From assembly GCA_021785655.1 (NCBI GenBank), contig JAJYET010000002.1, positions 82,391 through 146,390 on the forward strand: DNA of 64,000 nucleotides, given 5' to 3'. Position numbers and translations under genes: made by a program. Shown piece after piece: positions 35,712 through 51,573 of this stretch. Under the pieces are notes generated by a model that saw only the letters and a program-made list of their open reading frames with translations, made no database searches and had not been told where the DNA came from. The first letter of the stretch is position 1; every line of letters starts with the position of its first letter. Source of the DNA: a bacterium (GTDB lineage: Bacteria > Chloroflexota > Dormibacteria > Aeolococcales > Bog-877).

Positions 35712-37244
35712 GTGAAGGAGCTGACGCTCCCGGACCCGGTCACGTCGCCCGCCCTGGGCCCGCGGGGACACGTCCCCTCGCGCCGGGGGGCGCTGCTGGC
35801 AGCCCTCCCCTTCGTGATCTACGTCGGCCTCAGGGTGCCCTCGCTGTTCGAGCCGCACTGGTACAGCGACGAGGCGGGCTACGCCACCACGGCCTGGTTC
35901 TCCACCCACGGACTAGCCCTCTACCAGACCATCTGGAACAACAAGCCGCCTCTGCTCTTCTGGATCTACGACCTGGCCCTCTGGGCCTTCGGGCCCAGCG
36001 AGTTCGGGCTCCACCTGCTGTCCACCCTGACCGGGCTCCTGGCCCTCGGGGCGCTCAGCTGGGCGCTGCAGCGGAGGGCCAGCGGCTGGCGGCGCCTGGG
36101 GCCGCTGCTGGCGGCCGCCGTCCTCCTGGGGATCCCCTTACTGGGGGGGGACCTGGCCCTCCCGGAGAACTTCCTCATCGCCCCCGAGGCCCTGGGGATG
36201 GTGCTGGTCCTCGAGGGCCTCGAGCGAAGGGAGGCGGGCTGGATGGTGGGCGCCGGAGTGGCGCTGGCCACCGCCGTCCTGATCCAGCAAACGGCGCTGG
36301 CCGCGGTCGCGGCGGCGGTCCTCCTGATCGCGGTCCGCCCGGAGACAGGTCGGGTGCACCGGATCGCGGCCCTGCTCCTGGCCTGCGGGTTCGGGGTGGG
36401 GGCGGGGCTGGCCCCGTATCTGATCACCGCCGGGTTTGGCCAGGTCTGGTTCTTCCTCGTCGGCTCGTACCGCCAGTACACCTCCCAGTCCCTGCCCATG
36501 ACCGCCCTGACCCTCATCCCCCGGGCCCTGGCGGGCCCGCTGCTGCTGGTGGGAGCCGTGGGCCGGCGGCGCGATCCCCCAATGGCCCAGTTGGCGGCGG
36601 TCTGGCTGGTCGCCGACCTCTTCGCCTACCTCCTCCCCAACCGCGCCTACCCCCACTTCCTGCTGCCGGCCGTGGTTCCGCTGTGCCTCGTTCTGGCCGG
36701 CCTGCACCGGCCCGGGTGGTTCTCTGCCCCCAAGTTCCCCAGGCTGGCGCTGCCAACGTCCGCGGCCCTCTGCGTCGGCACCTGGGCGGCCCTCTTCGCC
36801 ATGAACGCCTCCGGCCTCTTCGGCGGGCTCCTCACCCTGGAGTACATCCCGCTCTCGGTGGGGCGGGCGGTCGGAGCCGTCACCGAGGCCCAGTACCTCT
36901 CCGCCTTCGGCCTGGAGACCCTGGGCGAGTCTCAGGCGGTGGCCTTCATTCGCAGCCACCACTTGGAGGGGGCCTCCACCGTGGTCTGGTCGGCCAACGC
37001 CTGGCCCTACCTGCTGGCCCGGCTGCGCCCCGTCCTTCCGACCCCGGCCATCTACATGGACCACTTCTGGTTGGGGGAGCGGGCGCTGATCGACCGGGTC
37101 CGCAGCGCCCTGCCGGAGCTGGTGGTGGTGGACGGCAGCGGCCTCCCCACGGCCCTCCGCGGCTTCCTGGACAGCTCCTACCGGGTGGTGGAGCGGGGAT
37201 CCGGGGGTTCTGCGGTGTGGCTCCGGGAGAACGTCCCGGGCTAG
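35712..37244 (+). CDS. GT-C superfamily membrane glycosyltransferase (ArnT/PMT_2-like)
   Basis: At 510 aa, it has more than 10 TM helices. An early loop HWYSDEAGY is followed by a PLLFW helix, as in 4-amino-arabinose/mannosyl GT-C enzymes. Confidence 0.5.
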   Translation: MKELTLPDPVTSPALGPRGHVPSRRGALLAALPFVIYVGLRVPSLFEPHWYSDEAGYATTAWFSTHGLALYQTIWNNKPPLLFWIYDLALWAFGPSEFGLHLLSTLTGLLALGALSWALQRRASGWRRLGPLLAAAVLLGIPLLGGDLALPENFLIAPEALGMVLVLEGLERREAGWMVGAGVALATAVLIQQTALAAVAAAVLLIAVRPETGRVHRIAALLLACGFGVGAGLAPYLITAGFGQVWFFLVGSYRQYTSQSLPMTALTLIPRALAGPLLLVGAVGRRRDPPMAQLAAVWLVADLFAYLLPNRAYPHFLLPAVVPLCLVLAGLHRPGWFSAPKFPRLALPTSAALCVGTWAALFAMNASGLFGGLLTLEYIPLSVGRAVGAVTEAQYLSAFGLETLGESQAVAFIRSHHLEGASTVVWSANAWPYLLARLRPVLPTPAIYMDHFWLGERALIDRVRSALPELVVVDGSGLPTALRGFLDSSYRVVERGSGGSAVWLRENVPG

Positions 37245-38383
37245 CGCTTCAGCTTGGTGGCGAGCGGCGGGGAGATCTGGGCGAAGGTCCCCCGCAGCGA
37301 CTTCACCCAGCGGTTGCCGGGCTGGCGCCAGGCCAGCGGCTCGCCGCCGCTCAGCGACCGGACCCCGTCAAGTCCGGCGTGGGGCACGGTGAGGACAGGC
37401 TGCTCCAGCACCCGGGAGGCGCGGTCCACCTCCACCTGGTGGTAGGGGAGGACGCAGTTGAGGATCACCGACACCCGGTCCCGGGGGATCCGCAACTGGT
37501 CGCAGATCCGAAGCCAGGCCAGGACCGCGAACACCCCGGGGTTGTCCGGGGTCCCCACCACCACCATATGCTCGGCCCGCTCCAGGATGTCTATCCCGCC
37601 GTTGTCGAGCCGCCCACCCTGATCCACCACCACCAGCTCCGCGGGGTGGGTGAGCCTCAGGATGATCGCCCCAACGGCTGCCGGCGCAACGGAGTCCGCC
37701 AGCTCGGGTCTCGCGGGCGCCGGAAGGACCGACACCCCACTCGGGTGGCGGGGAAGCCGGTCGAAGATCTCCTCCTCGGGGCCAACCGAGGCCAGCTCCA
37801 CCCAGGTGGGGGTCTGGGGAGGAAGGTTGAACGCCAGCAGCGCACTCCCGAAGCGGGGGACGTTATCCACCAGCGCCACCCGGTAGGCGTCCGCAGCCAG
37901 CACCGCGAGATTGGCCGCCAGCATCGTCCTGCCCGTGCCCCCCCGGGGTCCGCAAACCACCCAGAGCTCACCGCGGCCCTTGGTCGGTCGCTCCGGCGCC
38001 ACCGAGGCATCGAGCCGAGAGCGGACCAGGTCGGAGAGCGCCTTGGCGGAGGCCGTGCGGGGCAGCTTCTCGCTGGCGCCGGCGTCCAGCGCCGCCGCCA
38101 CCAGGGGAGAGTTGGCGTCCACGGCCACCAGGATGATGGGGATCGCGGCGTGCAGGATGCTGGCACGGATCTGGCGGACCAGGGGAACCAGCGCCGGGTC
38201 CTCGCCGATGACCTCGACCACCGCCGCGTCAGCCGGGGTAGCCTCCAGCTCGGCGGCGGCGGTGGCGGTCGAGTCGAACCCTACCAACTCGAGCCCGTTC
38301 TCGGCCAGCGCCTGGCGGATCACCTCGGACCTGGAAGCCTGACGGGCAATCACCAGCACCTTTCGGCGGAGCGTGTCAGGCAT
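37241..38383 (-). CDS. CpaE/TadZ-like protein: N-terminal receiver-like domain plus MinD/ParA-type ATPase domain
   Basis: The N-terminal ~120 aa resemble a REC fold (VLVIARQ...ILVAVD). Then comes a deviant Walker A, VVCGPRGGTGRTMLAANLA, and a ParA/MinD core. It lies immediately downstream of rplS. Confidence 0.55.
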   Translation of the reverse strand: MPDTLRRKVLVIARQASRSEVIRQALAENGLELVGFDSTATAAAELEATPADAAVVEVIGEDPALVPLVRQIRASILHAAIPIILVAVDANSPLVAAALDAGASEKLPRTASAKALSDLVRSRLDASVAPERPTKGRGELWVVCGPRGGTGRTMLAANLAVLAADAYRVALVDNVPRFGSALLAFNLPPQTPTWVELASVGPEEEIFDRLPRHPSGVSVLPAPARPELADSVAPAAVGAIILRLTHPAELVVVDQGGRLDNGGIDILERAEHMVVVGTPDNPGVFAVLAWLRICDQLRIPRDRVSVILNCVLPYHQVEVDRASRVLEQPVLTVPHAGLDGVRSLSGGEPLAWRQPGNRWVKSLRGTFAQISPPLATKLKR

Positions 38384-42673: not shown

Positions 42674-43618
42674 TCAGGCCGGCTCGTCAGCGAGCAGAGC
42701 CGAGACGTAGGCGGTGGGATCGAAGTCGTCGAGGTCGTCCGAGCCCTCGCCGGTTCCCACCAACTTCACCGGGAGATCGAGCTCCCGCTCCACCTGGAAC
42801 ACGTAGCCCCCGCGGGCGCTCCCATCCAGCTTGGTAAGCACCACGCCGGTGGCGCCGATGACCTCGGAGAAGGCGCGGGCCTGGGCCAGCGCGTTGGCTC
42901 CCACGTAGGCATCCAGCACCAGCAGCGACTCCTCAGGCTGGTCGGGGATGCTGGCGGCGATAACCCGACGCACCTTGGCCAGCTCCTGCATGAGGTTGTC
43001 CTTGGTGTGGAGCCGGCCCGCGGTGTCCACCAGGACCAGGTCCCGGTGGCGTGCTCGAGCGGCCTCCATGGCGTCGTACACGACGGCGGCGGGGTCCGCC
43101 CCGGGCCGGTGCCCGACCACATCCACTCCCAGGGGTTCGACCAGCCGGCGGAGCTGATCCTGGGCGGCGGCCCGGAAGGTGTCCCCGGCCGCCACCAGCG
43201 GGGTGAGCCCCTGTGCCTTGATCCGCGCCGCCAGCTTGGCCACGGTGGTGGTCTTCCCCGATCCGTTCACGCCCGCGACCAGCCAGACCCCGGGCGTTCC
43301 GCCCAGGCGCAGCTCCCGATCCCGCCCCACCAGCTTGCTCTCCATCTCCGAGCGCAACCCGGCGAGCAGCTCGGCCGAATCCCGAAGCCGCTCGCGCTCC
43401 GCCCGCTCGCGCAGCCCCTGGACCAGCTCCTCGGCCATCGAGGCGCCGCAGTCGCTGGCCAGCAGCAACTCGAAGATCTCCTCCAGGGTGGCGGCGTCCA
43501 CCGCCCCGTGTGCCAGCCGGGCCCGGATCTGGTGGCCGAGCCCGCTCCCCAGTCGGTCGAGACGGCGGGGAAGCCGCGACCACCACCTGGGCCGGCGCCC
43601 GCTGGCGGGGTCAGACAA
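42674..43618 (-). CDS. ftsY: signal recognition particle receptor FtsY (short form, NG domains)
   Basis: VAGVNGSGKTTTVAKLA (Walker A) and DTAGRLH are present, with the SRP GTPase C-terminus. Confidence 0.9.
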   Translation of the reverse strand: MSDPASGRRPRWWSRLPRRLDRLGSGLGHQIRARLAHGAVDAATLEEIFELLLASDCGASMAEELVQGLRERAERERLRDSAELLAGLRSEMESKLVGRDRELRLGGTPGVWLVAGVNGSGKTTTVAKLAARIKAQGLTPLVAAGDTFRAAAQDQLRRLVEPLGVDVVGHRPGADPAAVVYDAMEAARARHRDLVLVDTAGRLHTKDNLMQELAKVRRVIAASIPDQPEESLLVLDAYVGANALAQARAFSEVIGATGVVLTKLDGSARGGYVFQVERELDLPVKLVGTGEGSDDLDDFDPTAYVSALLADEPA

Positions 43619-46600
43619 ACGCCGCCTCCTCCGGAGCTCCCCGGTACTCCACCGGTGAGCCGTCCGCTCCCAACCGGACCGACAGGACCCGGCTGGCGCC
43701 CCTCCCGTCCTGGGTGACCCCGTAGAGGCGGTCGGCGGCGGCCATGGTGGCCAGGCTGTGAGTCACCAGCACGAACTGGGTGGTGCGGGCTCGCTGGCGC
43801 AGCATGCGCACGAAGCTGCCCACGTTGACCTCATCCAGGGCGGCGTCCACCTCGTCGAAGACGTAGAAGGGGCTGGGCGAGACCTGCTGGATGGCCAGCA
43901 CCAGCGCCAGCGCCGTCAGTGCCCGCTCGCCCCCGGACAGAAGGCCGAGCGGGATCACCCGCTTACCCCGGGGCTGCACCTCCAGGTCCACCCCCGGGAG
44001 CTCCCCGTCGGCACCCGGCACCGACACCAACCGGGCCCGCCCGCCCCCGAACAGCTCTTTCCACACGGACTCGAACTCCGCTGCCACTCGTCCCAAGGTC
44101 GCCCGGTACCTGGCGGCCGTGAGCTGGCCCACCGCTACCGCGACCGCCGAGAGCTCCCTCCTCGCCGCCTCCACGTCCTCGTGGACCCGGCGGAGATCCT
44201 CGGTGCGATCCAGCAGTTCAGCCAGCTGCCCCGGTGCCAGGGCGTTCACCGGCCCGAGCTGGGCCAGCCGCCGCTCCAGACGCCCTAGCTCCTGGGCCGT
44301 CCGGGCGGGATCCTCAACCCGGCTCGCCTGCTCCTCGGGGCCAGACTCCAACTCCGGTCGCCGCTGGGCCGCCGCCGCCTCCCGCCCGGCGAGCTGCGCC
44401 TCCAAGCCGGACACCGAATCCTCAGCCCTCCGAACGTCAGCGCTGAGCTCCGCCCTCCGCCGCTCCAGCTCGGCCAGCCGCGCCAGGGGATCGGCGTCAG
44501 CCGGTGCGCTCGGGGCCATCGCTCCAGCCTCGGCCACCGTTCGGCGAACCAGCCGACCGAGCTCCTCCCGGACGGCCCACTGGCGGCGCATCGCCTGGGC
44601 GGCCGCGGCTTCCGCGTCCCGGGCGCCCTGGGTCGCGGCCAGCACCCGTGCCGAGAGGCGGTCCCGCTGGGCGCGGCGCTCGCGTGAAAGGCGCAGGCTG
44701 GCCTCTCGTCGGGCCTCGAGCTCGGCCCACTGCGAGCGCAGGGTGGCCACCTCGGACCGAGCCTCGGCGAGTCGGGCCTGGACCAGGGACAGCTCTTCCA
44801 GGGTCGTCCCCCTCCGCTCCTCGGCCGCCTCCTGCTCGCGGGTCGCCGCCTCCTCCTCCGCCCGGGCCGAGGCAAGCTCGGCCAGCGCCCCCGAGACCTG
44901 GGGCTGGTGACTCGACAGCTCGGCGTCCAGGGTCGCCATCCGCCGGCCCAGCTCGGCCAGCTCGGCCTCCCCCCGGGCCACCCTGGTCCTCCGAGCTTCG
45001 GCTTCCTCCCGCGCGGCGGCCACCTCGCCCCGAGAGCAGTCCGCCGCCTCCTGGCTGTTCCGGTGCTGGGTCACCGCCCACTCGAGCCGTTCCTCCGCCT
45101 CGCGCACCAGCTGCTCGCGCCGCTCCGTCTCCGACCGGAGGGACCGCAGGGTGGTGGCGCCCACGATGGCCCCGCCACCGCTCTCCGGGGTGCGCTCCCA
45201 CCCGCTGCCCAACACCGTCCCGTCTGGGAGCACCGCCCGGCCCAGGGGCTCCATGCCCAGCCAGGCACTGCCAGCGACCCGATCCGGGGCGAGGCAGACG
45301 AGGGCCAGATGGCTGGCGATGACCTCCAGCGCCAGCGCATCGCCGGTGACCGCGTCCAGGAGCCTGCGGCAGCTCGCGGGCGGGCTGGACCCGGGTCCGC
45401 GCGCCGGCGGAGCCGCCCACACCACCATCTCGGCCGCCCCGCCGCGCCGCGCCAGCCCGCGCTTGGCCTCCTCCTCGGCACCCAGAAGCGCCAGGGCCAA
45501 CTCGCCGAGGGCGGCGTCCACAGCGACGGCGTCATCGGGAGAGAGCGGCCGCACCGCATCGGCCATGGGAGAGAGCGCCAGCTCCCCGGCCTGCACGGCG
45601 GCGGCGATCTCGCGACTGGCTCCCCGCCGCCGGACCCGGGCCTCGGCCTCGGCAAGCTCTCCCGCCGCCTGCCTGGCCGCCCGCTCCGCCTCCTCCAGCT
45701 CCGCCTCCAGGAGGCGTCGGTTGCGGCGGGCCTGCGCTTCAGCCTGGATCTCCATCTCCAGCCGGCCGACCGCAGCTCCCTGGGCCCTGTCGGCCGCCAG
45801 AAGGGCCTCCTGCTCCTGCCCGACCCGCTGCTCCAGCTCTCTGGCCTCGGCCCGGAGCGCGCCGAGGCCCTCCCGAGCCCTGGTCCCCTGCGAGTTGAGC
45901 AGCTCCACCCGTGCTGCCAGCCTCTGGATGGTGCGCGCCGCATTCTGCTGGGCCGCCCGCTGCCTGGCCGCCTCAGCTTCGGACTGCGACAGCTCCCCGC
46001 GCAGACCCGCCTCCCGGCGCTCCAGCTCGCGCACCTCCAGCTCCAGGCCGCTCCGCCGGTCCGCTGTCCCTAACGCGCCCTCCAGCTCGTCCTCGGGGGC
46101 GTCCGGCCCCATCTGCTCCAGGTCCCCGAGAGCCTCACGCCGGAGCCGCAGTGACGCGGCGCGGTCCCGCACGGCCTGGACCGCGCGCTCTCCCCACCTG
46201 GCCGCCTCGCCCTCCAGCCGCTGGCGGCTCAGGGCCAACTCGCCGATGGAGCGCTCGTGCTCCAGCCGGAGCCGCTCGCGAAGCTCCAGCTCCCCTCGCT
46301 CCCGCCGGTAGATCAGCGCGTATTCGGACTCCTGGGCCCGCGCCAGCTCCAGGGCGCGGCGGGCGCCCTGGAGCTGGCGCTCCGCACGCCGCACCTCCGT
46401 GATCGCCTCCAGCCAGGCGGCCCGCTCCAGCCCCCCGCGCATCCGGCGGATCTGACCCTGCAGCGCCGACGCCTCATCCGCCAGCTGGGCCTCGGCCCGC
46501 AGCTCCTCGATCCTGGGCCAGAGCTCCGCCAGCCGGCCTCCAGACCCCTCCAACCACTGGTCCAGGGAGGCCATCCGGGACGCGCTGTCGTCCAGGAGCG

Positions 46601-47114
46601 CCTGGGTCCCGCGGACCCCGGCGGCCTCCTCGATCAGGTGCCGGCGCTGGGCCGGCGTCGCCCGGATGATGGCCTCGATGTCGTTCTGGGCGATGACCGC
46701 GTACCCCGACTGGGCGAGGCCGGTAGCCTCCAGGAGGCGGTACACATCGCGGAGCCGAACCCGCTCGCCGTTGCGCCGGAACTCGCTGCCACCGTCGCGG
46801 AAGACCCTTCGGCTGAGGGCCACCTCCAGGTCCTCGACGGGGAGTCGCCGGTCCTCGTTGTCGAAGGTGATCGAGACCTCGGCCATCCCCTGAGGGGCTC
46901 GCCGTTCGCCACCGGCGAAGATCACATGGTCCAGCCGCTGGCCCCGAAGCTCGCGGGCGCTGGCTCCCCCCAACACCAGGCGGATCGCGTCCACCAGGTT
47001 GGACTTGCCGCTCCCGTTGGGCCCCACGATGGCGGTGATCCCGGCCCCGAGGTTGAGCTCGGTCGCCGCCGCAAAGCTCTTGAACCCCTGGAGCTGGAGG
47101 CGCGTGACCCTCAT
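43611..47114 (-). CDS. smc: chromosome partition protein Smc
   Basis: At 1167 aa, it has the N-terminal head (FKSFA...IVGPNGSGKSN), long coiled coils, a hinge, and the C-terminal signature/Walker B (LSGGERALTALALVLAIQ...FDEVDAALD). Confidence 0.9.
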   Translation of the reverse strand: MRVTRLQLQGFKSFAAATELNLGAGITAIVGPNGSGKSNLVDAIRLVLGGASARELRGQRLDHVIFAGGERRAPQGMAEVSITFDNEDRRLPVEDLEVALSRRVFRDGGSEFRRNGERVRLRDVYRLLEATGLAQSGYAVIAQNDIEAIIRATPAQRRHLIEEAAGVRGTQALLDDSASRMASLDQWLEGSGGRLAELWPRIEELRAEAQLADEASALQGQIRRMRGGLERAAWLEAITEVRRAERQLQGARRALELARAQESEYALIYRRERGELELRERLRLEHERSIGELALSRQRLEGEAARWGERAVQAVRDRAASLRLRREALGDLEQMGPDAPEDELEGALGTADRRSGLELEVRELERREAGLRGELSQSEAEAARQRAAQQNAARTIQRLAARVELLNSQGTRAREGLGALRAEARELEQRVGQEQEALLAADRAQGAAVGRLEMEIQAEAQARRNRRLLEAELEEAERAARQAAGELAEAEARVRRRGASREIAAAVQAGELALSPMADAVRPLSPDDAVAVDAALGELALALLGAEEEAKRGLARRGGAAEMVVWAAPPARGPGSSPPASCRRLLDAVTGDALALEVIASHLALVCLAPDRVAGSAWLGMEPLGRAVLPDGTVLGSGWERTPESGGGAIVGATTLRSLRSETERREQLVREAEERLEWAVTQHRNSQEAADCSRGEVAAAREEAEARRTRVARGEAELAELGRRMATLDAELSSHQPQVSGALAELASARAEEEAATREQEAAEERRGTTLEELSLVQARLAEARSEVATLRSQWAELEARREASLRLSRERRAQRDRLSARVLAATQGARDAEAAAAQAMRRQWAVREELGRLVRRTVAEAGAMAPSAPADADPLARLAELERRRAELSADVRRAEDSVSGLEAQLAGREAAAAQRRPELESGPEEQASRVEDPARTAQELGRLERRLAQLGPVNALAPGQLAELLDRTEDLRRVHEDVEAARRELSAVAVAVGQLTAARYRATLGRVAAEFESVWKELFGGGRARLVSVPGADGELPGVDLEVQPRGKRVIPLGLLSGGERALTALALVLAIQQVSPSPFYVFDEVDAALDEVNVGSFVRMLRQRARTTQFVLVTHSLATMAAADRLYGVTQDGRGASRVLSVRLGADGSPVEYRGAPEEAAFV

Positions 47115-48787
47115 TCCGGGCCGGAGACCACCACCTTGGTCCGACGCCGCCCTCCTCGGTGACCACGCCGGGTGCGGCGGGGAGAGGCCGGACCTTCCGG
47201 CCGAGCTGCGAGCTCCTGGGCCTCCGCATCCGATCCGGATGGCGGACCAAGCTGGGCCGCGTCCGGGGCAGATGCCGGCGGCTCGCCAAGGGCCGGGCCG
47301 GAGGTAGGGGCCCCTGGGCTCCGGCGCGACCGCCGACGGCTGGGAGCAGCCTCCGCGGTGCGGGAGTCGGTGGCGGGCGGCGGCCCGTCCTCTTCCATCC
47401 CCGCCCCCGGCTCTGATGGGGCGGCGGGCGCCACCACGGACCTCGCACGGCTCCGGCGGCGCCGGCGGCGGCCGGCGGCCGCCTCCTCGACGGAGGCCTC
47501 CACCTCGGCGCCCGCGCCCCCCCCGGCCATCGCGGGCGGAACAGCGTCGGGCTCCGCCGCCAGGGCCTCCACCGCCGACCGGGAGCGCGACCGGCGCCGT
47601 TTCCGCCGCGGCGGCGGGGCGTCGTCGCCCGCCACCGGGACCGCTGCCTCAGACGGTGCCACGGTCGCTCCCTGGGGAGGGACCTGGGTCGCCGGGGGCT
47701 CCAGTCCGCCGGGTTGGACCGCGGTCGGCTCTGCCGCGAGCTCCACCGCCGAGCGGGAGCGAGACCGGCGCCGTTTCCGCCGCGGCTGCGGGGCCTCGTC
47801 ACCCGCCAGCGAAACCGCCGCCTCAGACGGCGCCACCGTCGCTCCCTGGGGAGGGACCTGGGCCACCTGGGGCTCCAGTCCGTCGGGTTGGACCGCGGTC
47901 GGCTCCGCCGGGAGCTCCACCGCCGACCGGGAGCGAGACCGGCGCCGTTTCCGCCGCGGCTGCGGGGCCTCGTCGCCCGCCGGCGGAACCGCTGCAAGCG
48001 TCGAGGGCGGAGGGGCCGGCTCCGCCGGCGGGGGCTCCATCTCCCGGGTTGGGACGGCCGCGCTCCGTCCCCGCCTCCGCTTCGGCTCGGGAGCCATGAG
48101 CTTCTCCAGCGCCAGGCGGGCGGCCGCCTGCTCGGCGGCCTGCTTGGTGCCGCCCCGGCCCTCCCCCAGCATCCCGTGCCCCTCAACGGAAACCTGGGAG
48201 AGGTACTGCCGGCTGCGGGCGTCCTGCCCCACCGGCGCGGTGCGGTACTGGGGTGGGCCACCGAGCTTCTCCTGGGCAACGGCCTGGAGTCGGCCCTTGA
48301 AGTTGGGGTCGGTCCAGGCGCTGAGGTCCCCGATCCGGGAGAGGAAGATCCGCCCCGCGCGGCGGTACCCCTGGTCGAGGAAGGTGGCGCCCACCAGGGC
48401 CTCGAAGGCGTTGGCGTGCAGGGAGGTCAGTCGCCTGGCCCCGGACTTCGCCGCTCCCTTGCCGAGGCGGAGGGTCTCCCCCAGGGTCAGCTCCTCGCCC
48501 AGGCGGGCAAGGGCCACCGTGCTCACCAGCGACGAACGGATCTGGGTCAGCTGCCCCTCGTCGTATCCCGGGAAGCGCTTGAACAGGTACTCCCCGGCCA
48601 CCAGCTCCAAGACCGCATCGCCGAGGTACTCGAGCCGCTCGTTGTCGCGCCCCGCCACCCCCCGCTCGTTGATCCACGAGGTGTGGGTCATGGCCTCGCG
48701 CAGCAGCTCTCGCTGCTTGAACCGGAAGCCCAGCCGGGCCTCCAGCTGGTCCAAGCGCTTCTCCGCCTCGGCCTCCAGGGCCGCCAC
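47111..48787 (-). CDS. rnc: ribonuclease III fused to a ~330-aa arginine-rich repetitive C-terminal extension
   Basis: The catalytic domain has the ERLEYLGDAVL RNase III signature. A dsRBD follows (..SRQYLSQVSVEGHGMLGEGRGGTKQAAEQAAARLALEKL). The frame then continues without a stop through three ~58-aa repeats containing PRRKRRRSRSRSAVE and further R-rich blocks. The N-terminal 177 codons of the listed ORF overlap acpP and are rejected. The start is taken at GTG 48787. Confidence 0.8.
   Translation of the reverse strand: MAALEAEAEKRLDQLEARLGFRFKQRELLREAMTHTSWINERGVAGRDNERLEYLGDAVLELVAGEYLFKRFPGYDEGQLTQIRSSLVSTVALARLGEELTLGETLRLGKGAAKSGARRLTSLHANAFEALVGATFLDQGYRRAGRIFLSRIGDLSAWTDPNFKGRLQAVAQEKLGGPPQYRTAPVGQDARSRQYLSQVSVEGHGMLGEGRGGTKQAAEQAAARLALEKLMAPEPKRRRGRSAAVPTREMEPPPAEPAPPPSTLAAVPPAGDEAPQPRRKRRRSRSRSAVELPAEPTAVQPDGLEPQVAQVPPQGATVAPSEAAVSLAGDEAPQPRRKRRRSRSRSAVELAAEPTAVQPGGLEPPATQVPPQGATVAPSEAAVPVAGDDAPPPRRKRRRSRSRSAVEALAAEPDAVPPAMAGGGAGAEVEASVEEAAAGRRRRRRSRARSVVAPAAPSEPGAGMEEDGPPPATDSRTAEAAPSRRRSRRSPGAPTSGPALGEPPASAPDAAQLGPPSGSDAEAQELAARPEGPASPRRTRRGHRGGRRRTKVVVSGPE
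47518..48000. repeat. tandem direct repeats, ~174-bp unit, about 2.7-3 copies, inside the rnc 3' region
   Basis: Near-identical units begin around 47578, 47752 and 47926 (...cgggagcgagaccggcgccgtttccgccgcgg...). Degenerate partial copies flank them. Confidence 0.8.
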
Positions 48788-48828
48788 CTCCTCCGGGGTG
48801 GTCCTTCCTCGGCGGCGGCGGCCCGAGA

Positions 48829-49077
48829 TCAGCTGGCCAGGTCCAGATGCTCCCTCACGTAGTCCCAGGCCTGTCCCACGGTCTGGATCTTCTCCGCGTC
48901 CTCGTCCGGGATCTCCATCCCGTACGCCTCCTCGAAGGCCATGATCAGCTCCACCAGATCCAGCGAGTCCGCGTTCAGGTCCTCCACGAAGTTCGCCTCG
49001 GGAGTCACCTGTTCGGCCTCGACGCCCAGCTGCTCCACCACGATCGCCTGGAAGCCTTCCCACGTCGTGTCTGCCAT
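48829..49077 (-). CDS. acpP: acyl carrier protein
   Basis: [45 protein letters not shown] contains the DSLD phosphopantetheine attachment motif. The start is at the internal Met of the listed ORF. Confidence 0.9.
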
Positions 49078-50536: not shown

Positions 50537-51064
50537 TCAGCGCCTCCGGCCGCGCCCCTTGGGCCTCTCCTCGCCGTCCCGTCCTGACTCCAGGGTCTCC
50601 AAGCCTCGGCGCACCTCGCTGAGAGCGCTGGAAAGTTGGGTCTCCAGCGACTCCATCCGCTCCCGGGCATAGTCGTCGGCGTCCTTGCGCATCTTGCGGT
50701 GGCGTTCCCGCGCCTCCGCGAGGAGCCGATCGGCCTCGGCGGTGGCCTGGCGGGTGATCTCGTGCTGATCGGTGAGGCGCTCGGCCCGTTCCTGGGCCGC
50801 GAGGATCGTCTGCTCCGCCTGCGCCTCCGCCTCGCGCAACCGGGCCTCCCGTGTCTCCAGCACGAGGCGAGCTTCCTTGATCTCATCCGGCAGCCCCACC
50901 CGGATCTGGTCGATGGCGTCCAAGATCTCGTCCTCGTTGATCACCACATTGGGGGTGAGCGGCACCCGGCGGCTCTGGTTCACCAGCGCCTCCAACTGGT
51001 CGAGGACGTCGAAGATCGAGACCCGCTCGCTCTCCACCCCGAAGTCGTCTTGGTCGTCGCTCAT
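50537..51064 (-). CDS. hypothetical acidic coiled-coil protein (occupies the yceD/DUF177 position upstream of rpmF but lacks Cys motifs)
   Basis: At 176 aa, it starts MSDDQDDFGVESERVSIFDVLDQLEALVNQ. It has long Glu/Arg/Ala heptad-like segments and a basic tail. Its ATG overlaps the coaD stop (ATGA). Confidence 0.55.
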   Translation of the reverse strand: MSDDQDDFGVESERVSIFDVLDQLEALVNQSRRVPLTPNVVINEDEILDAIDQIRVGLPDEIKEARLVLETREARLREAEAQAEQTILAAQERAERLTDQHEITRQATAEADRLLAEARERHRKMRKDADDYARERMESLETQLSSALSEVRRGLETLESGRDGEERPKGRGRRR

Positions 51065-51573
51065 GCTCCCTCCTCCGCTCTCGGGCGGGGACCCGCCTTC
51101 TCCAGCCGCTGGCGGAGCGCGGCCTCGACCGGCGCCGGCACCAGCCCCTGAACGCCCCCACCGTGGGCACACACATCCTTTATCAGCGACGAGCTGAGAT
51201 ACACGTTGGCAAAGCTGGTGGTCAGGAACACGGTGTGCACCCTGGGCTCCAGACGGCGGTTCATGAGCGCCATCTGGAACTCGCTGTCCAGATCCGACAC
51301 CGCCCGGAGGCCACGCACGATCACCGCCGCCCCCTGGCTGATCGCGAACTCCACGGCCAGCCCGGAGAAGTGGGCGACCTCCACGTCGCTCTCCGGGCCG
51401 AGGCTGTCGCGCACCATCTGGGCCCGCTCCGCGGCCGTGAACAGGCAGCGCTTGGCGGTGTTGTCCAGCACCCCCACCACCACCCTGTCGAAGATCATCC
51501 GAGCCCGCTTGATCACGTCCAAATGCCCCTCGTGGATGGGATCGAAACTCCCGGGATAGACGGCGGTGGTCAT
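51061..51573 (-). CDS. coaD: phosphopantetheine adenylyltransferase
   Basis: MTTAVYPGSFDPIHEGHLDVIKRA (HxGH nucleotidyltransferase motif) is present. The 225 upstream codons of the listed ORF are rejected. Confidence 0.9.
   Translation of the reverse strand: MTTAVYPGSFDPIHEGHLDVIKRARMIFDRVVVGVLDNTAKRCLFTAAERAQMVRDSLGPESDVEVAHFSGLAVEFAISQGAAVIVRGLRAVSDLDSEFQMALMNRRLEPRVHTVFLTTSFANVYLSSSLIKDVCAHGGGVQGLVPAPVEAALRQRLEKAGPRPRAEEGA

What the first reader, a model, noticed from the sequence alone, without database searches (positions are those of the whole stretch)
47111..48787. RNase III carries a long arginine-rich, tandem-repeat C-terminal tail
The rnc frame has a complete catalytic domain (ERLEYLGDAVL) and a dsRBD. 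It then continues without a stop for about 330 more residues. This tail contains three ~58-aa repeats, each with a PRRKRRRSRSRSAVE block and a PPQGATVAPSEAAV block. Further blocks follow (RRRRRRSRARS, SRRRSRRSP, RRTRRGHRGGRRRTKVV). Bacterial RNase III is normally about 230 aa. Arg-rich disordered tails of this kind are characteristic of RNase E scaffolds and some RNA helicases. The fusion may therefore give RNase III a nonspecific RNA-binding or condensate-forming module, or a platform for partners.
Basis: partly seen in the sequence, partly recalled or inferred. Interest (0 to 1): 0.7.

Follow-up and report, generated by a model that had tools for sequence, protein, structure and literature searches.

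The report
RNase III with conserved disordered arginine tail
A soil bacterium of the uncultured phylum Dormibacterota makes an otherwise ordinary RNA-cutting enzyme (RNase III) that carries a 323-residue floppy tail of alternating arginine-rich and acidic segments; the tail is translated and conserved across the phylum, and it resembles the tails that let other bacterial RNases bind RNA and form droplets.

Summary
The rnc gene (window 48787..47111, minus strand, 558 aa) encodes a complete class-1 RNase III (residues 1-235) followed by 323 more residues with no stop. The tail is translated and under selection. In 25 of 25 complete relatives the frame stays open and ends in an ATGA overlap with smc. 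Indels preserve the frame. pN/pS is 0.49-0.78 in frame and about 1.0-1.5 out of frame. A near-terminal motif, R-x-[HR]-R-G-[HR]-R-G-G-R-x-R, has invariant residues encoded by 3-5 synonymous codons.

All 120 closest homologues, named Dormibacterota where a name exists, carry a tail (median 187 aa), and 115 have the motif. The window's tail has seven Arg blocks (+5 to +9) separated by acidic Pro/Ala spacers (-4 to -7). It is predicted disordered and grew by 174-bp tandem duplication. It has no homologue outside its own clade.

My best reading is a multivalent, RNA-binding, charge-patterned disordered region with short linear motifs. It is analogous, not homologous, to RNase E C-terminal domains. 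The function is inferred, not shown. I found no published description. It is a new variant of a known enzyme, of moderate interest.

The parts
47111..48787 (-). rnc coding sequence, 558 codons plus TGA. GTG start at 48787; alternative TTG start at 48754.
   Evidence: ORF. The translation is identical to database protein P0001. TIGR02191 equivalog scores above its cut-off.
48332..48712 (-). RNase III catalytic domain, residues 26-152. Contains the signature NERLEYLGDAVL and E129. N126 sits at the position of the fourth canonical acidic residue.
   Evidence: Pfam PF14622 and PF00636. Alignments to solved RNase III chains. AF2 pLDDT about 85-95.
48098..48298 (-). Double-stranded RNA-binding domain, residues 164-230.
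   Evidence: Pfam PF00035. AF2 predicts an alpha-beta-beta-beta-alpha fold with high pLDDT.
47114..48082 (-). Disordered C-terminal tail, residues 236-558. Composition: 19% Ala, 17% Pro, 17% Arg+Lys, 12% Asp+Glu; no aromatic residues, Ile, Cys or Asn. Net charge +16.
   Evidence: Composition and charge blocks. AF2 predicts no secondary structure, pLDDT 40-56. No match in Pfam, NCBIfam or PDB.
48065..48082 (-). Arg block 1, KRRRGR, residues 236-241, directly after the dsRBD.
   Evidence: Conserved as K[KR]RR.R in relatives.
47927..47956 (-). Arg block 2, RRKRRRSRSR, residues 278-287 (repeat unit 1).
47753..47782 (-). Arg block 3, RRKRRRSRSR, residues 336-345 (repeat unit 2).
47579..47608 (-). 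Arg block 4, RRKRRRSRSR, residues 394-403 (partial repeat unit 3).
47441..47470 (-). Arg block 5, RRRRRRSRAR, residues 440-449.
47321..47338 (-). Arg block 6, RRRSRR, residues 484-489.
47135..47179 (-). Arg block 7, the phylum-wide near-terminal motif RRTRRGHRGGRRRTK, residues 537-551.
   Evidence: Present in 115 of 120 homologues. Invariant Arg and Gly residues are encoded by 3-5 synonymous codons across 25 genomes.
47550..47992 (-). Tandem DNA repeat: 174-bp period, 2.5 copies, 90% match. It encodes the 58-aa units.
   Evidence: Tandem Repeats Finder. Unit comparisons between genomes.
47111..47114 (-). ATGA overlap of the rnc stop (TGA) and the smc start (ATG).
   Evidence: Sequence. The same overlap occurs in 25 of 25 complete related loci.
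43611..47114 (-). smc, the downstream gene that overlaps the rnc stop codon (context).
   Evidence: ORF whose product begins MRVTRLQLQGFKSF.
48829..49077 (-). acpP, the upstream gene (context). There are 41 nt between its stop and the rnc GTG.
   Evidence: Pfam PP-binding. Sequence.

Best explanation
This is the housekeeping class-1 RNase III of a Dormibacterota bacterium. It sits in the usual acpP-rnc-smc-ftsY-ffh gene context and has a translated, intrinsically disordered C-terminal extension of 323 residues.

The extension is a block polyampholyte. Seven short Arg-rich 'stickers' (net +5 to +9 each) are separated by 34-48-residue Pro/Ala/Glu/Asp 'spacers' (net -4 to -7 each). It ends in a phylum-conserved RG-type short linear motif, R-x-[HR]-R-G-[HR]-R-G-G-R-x-R.

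Inferred mechanism:
- RNase III acts as a homodimer, so each enzyme would present 14 polycationic blocks.
- These blocks would bind RNA electrostatically, in addition to the dsRBD.
- That would hold the enzyme on large RNAs such as nascent pre-rRNA and structured mRNAs.
- At high local concentration it would favour RNA-dependent clustering or condensation, as charge-patterned RNase E C-terminal domains do.
- The invariant terminal motif is probably a specific contact for a structured RNA or a partner protein, not just added charge.
- Valency is tuned in evolution by tandem duplication and loss of the 58-aa unit.

Shown here: the tail is translated, selected, predicted disordered, charge-patterned, motif-bearing and clade-wide (I put this part at about 0.95). 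Inferred only: RNA binding, clustering and a specific partner. The confidence given is for the whole statement, mechanism included.
For: Translation and selection:
- In 25 of 25 complete related loci the rnc frame stays open for 320-570 codons and stops in an ATGA overlap with smc.
- In a nucleotide-only alignment of the tails, 129 of 145 pairwise gap runs are multiples of 3. The 35- and 154-nt runs that make up most of the rest sum to 189 nt, a multiple of 3, consistent with one gap split by the aligner.
- dN/dS is 0.42-0.71 in the tail and 0.01-0.10 in the core.
- pN/pS is 0.49-0.78 in frame and 0.99-1.48 in the two shifted frames.
- Arg-block columns are invariant in 35 of 38 cases, against 47 of 222 for other tail columns. 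42 of 46 Arg/Lys columns use two or more codons.
- The invariant residues of the terminal motif are encoded by 3-5 synonymous codons.

Clade-wide distribution:
- All 120 best homologues are 330-596 aa. The median tail is 187 aa and 115 of 120 carry the motif.

Physical character:
- There are seven charge blocks. Charge segregation is z = 10.8 against 2000 shuffles.
- AF2 gives the core pLDDT of about 90 and predicts the tail as coil with pLDDT 40-56.

Precedents:
- In Caulobacter RNase E, alternating charge blocks are needed for the C-terminal domain to form foci, and RNA promotes droplet formation (bioRxiv 10.1101/272286, read).
- In cyanobacterial RNase E, the near-terminal nonapeptide RRRRRRSSA docks PNPase (PMC3964918, read).

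Specificity within this genome region:
- No other coding-frame ORF in the 64-kb window has such multi-block Arg tails.
Against: No experiment or proteomic datum is available, so RNA binding and condensation rest on composition and analogy.

The acidic spacers are more dilute (-1 to -3 per 10 residues) than the -2 to -8 reported for Caulobacter RNase E. The tail has net charge +16. Self-coacervation is therefore less likely than RNA-dependent association.

Spacers evolve almost neutrally (dN/dS up to 0.83).

More distant Dormibacterota have only 0-2 Arg blocks and instead carry two helix-like motifs. The multi-block design is therefore not required for whatever the ancestral tail does.

The tail has no detectable homology to any RNase E C-terminal domain.
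Confidence: 0.55

Rival explanations
1. The tail is mainly a protein-docking scaffold. The conserved Arg/Ser blocks and the terminal RGHRGGR motif would be short linear motifs that recruit partner enzymes such as PNPase, an RNA helicase or RNase J. RNase III would then be the hub of a degradosome-like complex in this phylum.
For: The tail shows islands of strict conservation in otherwise variable disordered sequence. That is the pattern of RNase E microdomains. RRRRRRSRARS and PRRKRRRSRSRS resemble the cyanobacterial PNPase-docking nonapeptide RRRRRRSSA, whose neutral Ser/Ala residues matter for binding (PMC3964918). Distant relatives carry two further conserved, helix-like segments. Invariant Gly and His positions in the terminal motif argue for specific recognition rather than charge alone.
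Against: No partner is identified and none is encoded beside the gene. The motifs occur only in RNase III, not in other proteins of the phylum that the searches could reach. The resemblance to the cyanobacterial nonapeptide is compositional only.
Confidence: 0.2
2. The tail is mostly a selectively near-neutral by-product of a very GC-rich genome. It would be a disordered extension that expands and contracts by replication slippage. Only the short terminal motif and a few basic residues would have a modest function such as solubility, stability or general polyanion affinity.
For: Spacers have dN/dS of 0.5-0.8. Tail length ranges from about 100 to 342 aa and Arg-block number from 0 to 7 among relatives. 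Repeat units are gained, lost and homogenised. Arg, Ala, Pro and Gly codons are GC-rich.
Against: The Arg blocks are almost invariant at the protein level while their codons vary. In the seven closest genomes, spacers keep their net negative charge and contain almost no basic residues. Every one of the 120 homologues retains a tail, although a single stop mutation would remove it. Other genes in the same window have no such tails.
Confidence: 0.12
3. The polycationic tail targets RNase III to DNA, the nucleoid or polyphosphate rather than to RNA. This could couple it to chromosome organisation with the SMC protein encoded by the overlapping downstream gene.
For: The rnc stop and smc start overlap as ATGA in all 26 genomes. 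Arg blocks bind any polyanion.
Against: From my own knowledge, rnc-smc-ftsY linkage is widespread in bacteria whose RNase III has no tail, for example Bacillus subtilis. The linkage therefore does not explain the tail. Nothing in the sequence is specific for DNA.
Confidence: 0.06
4. The tail is not made. On this view the long ORF is an assembly frameshift, or a chance open frame in GC-rich DNA between rnc and smc.
For: Two other frames across the same region are also open for about 590-600 codons. Positional GC is less typical of coding sequence in the tail (GC2 0.62-0.80; GC3 0.66 in the last 50 codons).
Against: Independent assemblies of 25 related genomes keep the same frame up to the smc overlap. 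Indels are in multiples of 3. Purifying selection is seen only in this frame. Peptide motifs are conserved with synonymous variation. No terminator, promoter or Rfam family lies in the region.
Confidence: 0.01

Closest known systems
Bacterial class-1 RNase III (Rnc; NCBIfam TIGR02191; for example T. maritima 1o0w, E. coli 7r97, A. aeolicus 1yyk)
   Same: Residues 1-235 are a full-length match with one catalytic domain plus one dsRBD. The signature ERLEYLGD is present and the equivalog score is above its cut-off. The gene context acpP-rnc-smc-ftsY-ffh is the usual one.
   Different: Solved bacterial enzymes are 220-252 aa and end a few residues after the dsRBD. This enzyme continues for 323 residues. 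It also has Asn (N126) where T. maritima has the canonical Asp.
C-terminal disordered domain of alpha-proteobacterial RNase E (BR-body scaffold; Al-Husini et al., bioRxiv 10.1101/272286)
   Same: Both are disordered and poorly conserved in sequence. Both have alternating positive (Arg-rich) and negative blocks, with conserved islands in variable sequence, and both are attached to an endoribonuclease.
   Different: There is no sequence homology and the nuclease family is different. The negative blocks here are longer and more dilute, and the net charge is +16. No degradosome partner sites are known. Condensation is untested.
Cyanobacterial RNase E near-terminal nonapeptide RRRRRRSSA (PNPase docking site; PMC3964918)
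   Same: Both are short Arg runs followed by Ser/Ala, strictly conserved near the C-terminus of an otherwise variable non-catalytic tail.
   Different: The enzyme and phylum differ. The universal motif here is RGHRGGR-type with invariant Gly. Binding to PNPase has not been tested.
N-terminal Pro-rich and Arg/Ser-rich region of Drosha, an animal class-2 RNase III (own knowledge)
   Same: Both are RNase III family members carrying a Pro-rich, Arg/Ser-containing low-complexity extension. The window's catalytic domain aligns well to Drosha's domains and shares the Asn of Drosha RIIIDa.
   Different: Drosha's extension is N-terminal and the one here is C-terminal. The RS runs here are only three dipeptides long. 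No part of the tail matched any PDB chain, including the Drosha chains. The two are at most convergent.
RGG/Arg-rich C-terminal tails of bacterial DEAD-box helicases and the AR2/RBD segments of E. coli RNase E (own knowledge; preprint 10.64898/2026.08.11.744331 listed)
   Same: These are short Arg/Gly-rich disordered segments that add RNA affinity to an RNA-processing enzyme.
   Different: The protein families differ. Here the segment is one element of a much longer patterned tail.

Membership tests
Bacterial class-1 RNase III (Rnc) | RNase III catalytic domain with the signature motif E-R-L-E-[FY]-L-G-D | tested here: met
   Pfam PF14622 (E = 2.7e-32) and PF00636 (E = 2.3e-23) at residues 26-152. 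NERLEYLGDAVL lies at residues 49-60.
Bacterial class-1 RNase III (Rnc) | A single C-terminal dsRNA-binding domain | tested here: met
   Pfam PF00035 at residues 164-230. AF2 predicts an alpha-beta3-alpha fold with pLDDT around 90.
Bacterial class-1 RNase III (Rnc) | Score above the curated equivalog cut-off over the whole profile | tested here: met
   TIGR02191 scores 205.7 bits against a cut-off of 166.25, covering profile positions 1-219 of 219.
Bacterial class-1 RNase III (Rnc) | Four metal-binding acidic residues (E41, D45, D114, E117 in E. coli numbering; own knowledge) | tested here: inconclusive
   E53, D57 and E129 are present. The D114 position is N126, invariant in 53 relatives. Drosha RIIIDa and a Bacteroidales Rnc also have Asn there, and a deltaproteobacterial Rnc has Ala. 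The substitution occurs in other RNase III enzymes, so it does not by itself argue against catalytic activity.
Bacterial class-1 RNase III (Rnc) | Compact size of about 220-250 aa with nothing after the dsRBD | tested here: not met
   The protein is 558 aa with 323 residues after the dsRBD. Solved bacterial enzymes are 220-252 aa. This is the variant feature. It does not remove the protein from the family.
RNase E-type disordered scaffold domain (degradosome / BR-body C-terminal domain) | Sequence homology to an RNase E C-terminal domain or its microdomains | tested here: not met
   The tail alone finds only its own clade among 1.84 billion representatives. It has no NCBIfam, Pfam or PDB match.
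RNase E-type disordered scaffold domain (degradosome / BR-body C-terminal domain) | [quoted passage not shown] | tested here: met
   AF2 predicts coil with pLDDT 40-56. There are seven positive blocks and six negative spacers, with segregation z = 10.8.
RNase E-type disordered scaffold domain (degradosome / BR-body C-terminal domain) | Conserved short linear motifs embedded in variable sequence | tested here: met
   The Arg blocks and the terminal motif are conserved while the spacers vary.
RNase E-type disordered scaffold domain (degradosome / BR-body C-terminal domain) | RNA-dependent condensate or focus formation and recruitment of partner enzymes | not testable with these tools
   This needs purified protein or live-cell imaging. 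No cultured Dormibacterota is available.
Eukaryotic-type RS domain | Long runs of Arg-Ser dipeptides (tens of residues; own knowledge) | tested here: not met
   Each block holds only RSRSRS, three dipeptides. The blocks are mainly poly-Arg.
RGG/RG motif | Two or more closely spaced RGG or RG units (own knowledge of the usual definition) | tested here: met
   The terminal motif contains RG-H-RGG, with invariant R-G-x-R-G-G-R in 114 aligned homologues. It qualifies only as a minimal di-RG-type motif.

The most novel reading that the evidence does not exclude
In Dormibacterota, RNase III rather than RNase E, Y or J would be the scaffold of the RNA-processing and decay machinery. Its charge-patterned tail would drive RNA-dependent condensates comparable to BR-bodies. 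The phylum-invariant RGHRGGR motif, together with the helix-like motifs of other clades, would dock a specific partner enzyme or the ribosome. This would be an independent, convergent origin of a degradosome-like hub on a different nuclease.
Probability: 0.15. Interest if true: 0.8.

Novelty: new variant of a known kind. Interest (0 to 1): 0.55.

Why it matters
Bacterial RNase III is the textbook minimal member of its family, with one catalytic domain and one dsRBD. A phylum-wide version with a selected, charge-patterned disordered tail and conserved short linear motifs has several implications.
- Accessory disordered scaffolds would have arisen convergently on different bacterial RNases.
- It supports the idea that multivalent Arg-rich tails are a general way of organising RNA processing.
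- Relatives carry from 0-1 to 7 Arg blocks. This is a natural series of valency variants for testing sticker-and-spacer models.
- The invariant terminal motif is a concrete handle for finding RNase III partners in a phylum with no cultured member.

Tried and rejected
1. Word-indexed protein search with the last 45 residues returned no candidates, so it was uninformative.
2. A metagenome scan with the back-translated motif HRGHRGGRxR gave 120 stretches. Of these, 119 are chance out-of-frame matches in GC-rich DNA and one is an rnc gene. It therefore cannot say whether other proteins carry the motif.
3. The tail alone against 1.84 billion representatives found only its own cluster. The tail against PDB at E up to 10 found nothing. 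The tail against NCBIfam at E up to 1 found nothing.
4. The tail of a distant relative, with its two helix-like motifs, found only five RNase III fragments. No other family shares these motifs.
5. An RNA element, promoter or terminator inside the tail DNA was considered. Rfam at E up to 1 and the consensus scans found none.
6. I considered that the terminal motif is conserved at the DNA level, for example as a ribosome-binding site for smc. I rejected this because synonymous positions vary freely.
7. I considered that the motif acts as a nascent-peptide element at a fixed distance from the stop codon, controlling coupling to smc. The distance is constant (9 residues) only in the closer clade and ranges from 6 to 105 residues in distant relatives, so I rejected this.
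8. I considered that Arg-block tails are a general proteome habit of this genome. No other coding-frame ORF in the 64-kb window has them.
9. Five literature searches found no description of a bacterial RNase III with such a tail.


Full report
**Observation**

On the minus strand, one frame is open from 49318 to a TGA at 47113-47111. The upstream part of that frame overlaps acpP, which lies in another frame (48829-49077; Pfam PP-binding). The first usable start after acpP is GTG at 48787. It gives a 558-aa product identical to the public gene call P0001. A TTG at 48754, used for the relative P0002, is an alternative start and changes nothing of substance.

Pfam finds the RNase III domain at residues 26-152 and a dsRBD at 164-230. 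The NCBIfam equivalog for ribonuclease III is matched over its whole length above the curated cut-off. All matches to solved bacterial RNase III structures (220-252 aa) lie within residues 5-237. A further 323 residues follow.

The repeat period is 174 bp (58 aa), with 2.5 copies at 90% match. The block PPQGATVAPSEAAV occurs twice, not three times.

**Is the tail translated?**

ORF length means little in DNA that is 70-83% G+C. Two other frames across the same stretch are open for about 590-600 codons, and positional GC in the tail is less distinctive than in the core. I therefore relied on comparison with relatives.

A scan of one genome per species returned 29 related loci. Most carry names in Candidatus Dormibacterota (taxonomy).
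- In all 25 loci that are complete and unmasked, the rnc frame runs 320-570 codons. It ends in a TGA that overlaps the ATG of smc as ATGA, exactly as in the window.
- In a nucleotide-only alignment of the tails of eight genomes, 129 of 145 pairwise gap runs are multiples of three. The 35- and 154-nt runs that account for most of the rest sum to 189 nt, a multiple of three, consistent with one gap split by the aligner.
- dN/dS is 0.01-0.10 in the core and 0.42-0.71 in the tail.
- As a control, pN/pS on the same alignment is 0.49-0.78 in the annotated frame and 0.99-1.48 in the two shifted frames.
- Columns of the Arg blocks are invariant in 35 of 38 cases, against 47 of 222 for the rest of the tail. 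42 of 46 Arg/Lys columns use two or more codons.
- The near-terminal motif has invariant Arg and Gly residues, each encoded by 3-5 different codons across 25 genomes.

Selection therefore acts on the peptide. The tail is translated to its end.

**Distribution**

All 120 best homologues are 330-596 aa long. Where a source gives a name, it is nearly always Dormibacteria or Dormibacterota. Tails have a median length of 187 aa (interquartile range 129-239, maximum 342). The motif [HRK]RG[HRKQ]R[GS]GR is present in 115 of 120. Four of the five exceptions are truncated or divergent at the C-terminus, and P0009 carries a variant (RRSHRGGRRR) that lacks the first Gly.

Aligned on the motif, the consensus is R-[KR]-R-[TSN]-[HR]-R-G-[HR]-R-G-G-R-[GR]-R, with seven invariant positions.

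The window's subclade has the longest tails and the most Arg blocks. More distant members have 0-2 blocks. Instead they carry two other conserved segments, EPARVRRRVAEVAADRGA and RRGLLAALRAAAEVIVG.

Three outgroup enzymes, from Clostridia, Deltaproteobacteria and Bacteroidales, end just after the dsRBD.

**Anatomy of the window's tail**

There are seven Arg blocks of 6-15 residues, each with net charge +5 to +9. They are separated by six spacers of 34-48 residues with net charge -4 to -7. The spacers contain almost no basic residues and are rich in Pro and Ala.

Charge segregation exceeds all 2000 shuffles (z = 10.8). The tail has no aromatic residues, Ile, Cys or Asn, and its net charge is +16.

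AlphaFold2, run with a 53-sequence alignment, models residues 1-231 with high confidence. It gives residues 236-558 no secondary structure, with pLDDT 40-56.

Repeat units 1 and 2 are 92% identical within this genome and 91% identical within L001, but only 72-79% identical between the two genomes. In other relatives they are 63-69% identical, and L005 lacks a unit. The array is therefore old, is homogenised in some lineages, and changes copy number.

**What the tail is not**

- It is not a domain shared with other proteins. HMMER against 1.84 billion representatives finds only its own cluster. PDB, Pfam and NCBIfam give nothing. The tail of a distant relative finds only RNase III fragments.
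- It is not an RNA element, promoter or terminator.
- It is not a general habit of this genome. No other coding-frame ORF in the window has multi-block Arg tails.

**Mechanism (inferred)**

The architecture fits the description of the Caulobacter RNase E C-terminal domain. That domain is disordered and poorly conserved, with alternating positive and negative blocks. Its positive blocks are required for focus formation, and RNA stimulates droplet formation. The architecture also recalls cyanobacterial RNase E, where a strictly conserved near-terminal RRRRRRSSA docks PNPase.

I therefore favour a multivalent electrostatic RNA-binding extension. It would tether the dimeric enzyme to large RNAs and could promote RNA-dependent clustering. 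The terminal RG motif would be a specific contact.

The negative blocks are more dilute here than in Caulobacter and the net charge is positive. Association should therefore depend on RNA rather than on self-coacervation.

The rivals are a protein-docking scaffold, a nearly neutral GC-driven extension with only a small functional core, and DNA or nucleoid targeting. These cannot be separated by computation. The artefact reading is excluded.

**Comparison and novelty**

The protein is a member of bacterial class-1 RNase III by every test except size. One catalytic-site column holds Asn instead of Asp, but the same substitution occurs in other RNase III enzymes, including Drosha RIIIDa.

The tail works like, but is not a member of, the RNase E scaffold domains: homology was tested and not found. 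Five literature searches found no description of such a bacterial RNase III.

I rate it a new variant of a known kind, with moderate interest. I could not test whether compositionally similar tails exist on RNase III in other GC-rich phyla. I also could not test whether Dormibacterota lack another RNase scaffold.

Noticed in passing
window 48410-48412 (codon for N126 of rnc, minus strand): The RNase III has Asn where T. maritima RNase III has the canonical metal-binding Asp ('slhaNafEal' against 'silaDafEal'). The Asn is invariant in 53 Dormibacterota sequences. Human Drosha RIIIDa and a Bacteroidales Rnc (L032) also have Asn, and a deltaproteobacterial Rnc (L031) has Ala.
   Followed up: partly
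proteins P0072-P0125 (distant Dormibacterota RNase III), not in the window: The tails of a more distant clade carry two further conserved, helix-like segments, EPARVRRRVAEVAADRGA and RRGLLAALRAAAEVIVG, upstream of the shared RGHRGGR motif. They are absent from the window protein and were found only in RNase III.
   Followed up: partly
window 47550-47992; L001-L006 equivalents: Repeat units 1 and 2 are 91-92% identical within the window genome and within L001, but only 72-79% identical between these genomes. In L002, L004 and L006 they are 63-69% identical, and L005 lacks one unit. This points to gene conversion or independent re-duplication.
   Followed up: yes
window 47111-47114 and 43611-43618: The rnc stop and smc start overlap as ATGA, and this is conserved in 25 of 25 related loci. 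By the mechanical ORF list, the smc stop and the first possible ftsY start (TTG 43618) also overlap. The three genes may therefore be translationally coupled.
   Followed up: partly
loci L012, L015, L028: MAG records titled Candidatus Nanopelagicaceae, Candidatus Acidiferrales and Candidatus Micrarchaeaceae archaeon carry the Dormibacterota-type rnc-smc locus at 78-81% protein identity to the window. The bins are probably mislabelled.
   Followed up: no
window 50540-51172 (-) and 37244-38383 (-): Two ORFs of 211 and 380 aa, on the same strand as the conserved recG ... trmD gene string, have no Pfam match at E up to 1e-5.
   Followed up: no
window 48754-48829: The rnc start is ambiguous. GTG 48787 directly abuts a GGAGGAG stretch, with almost no spacer. 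A TTG at 48754 has GGAG about 9 nt upstream and is the start called in the relative P0002. The difference is 11 residues, before the first profile position.
   Followed up: partly
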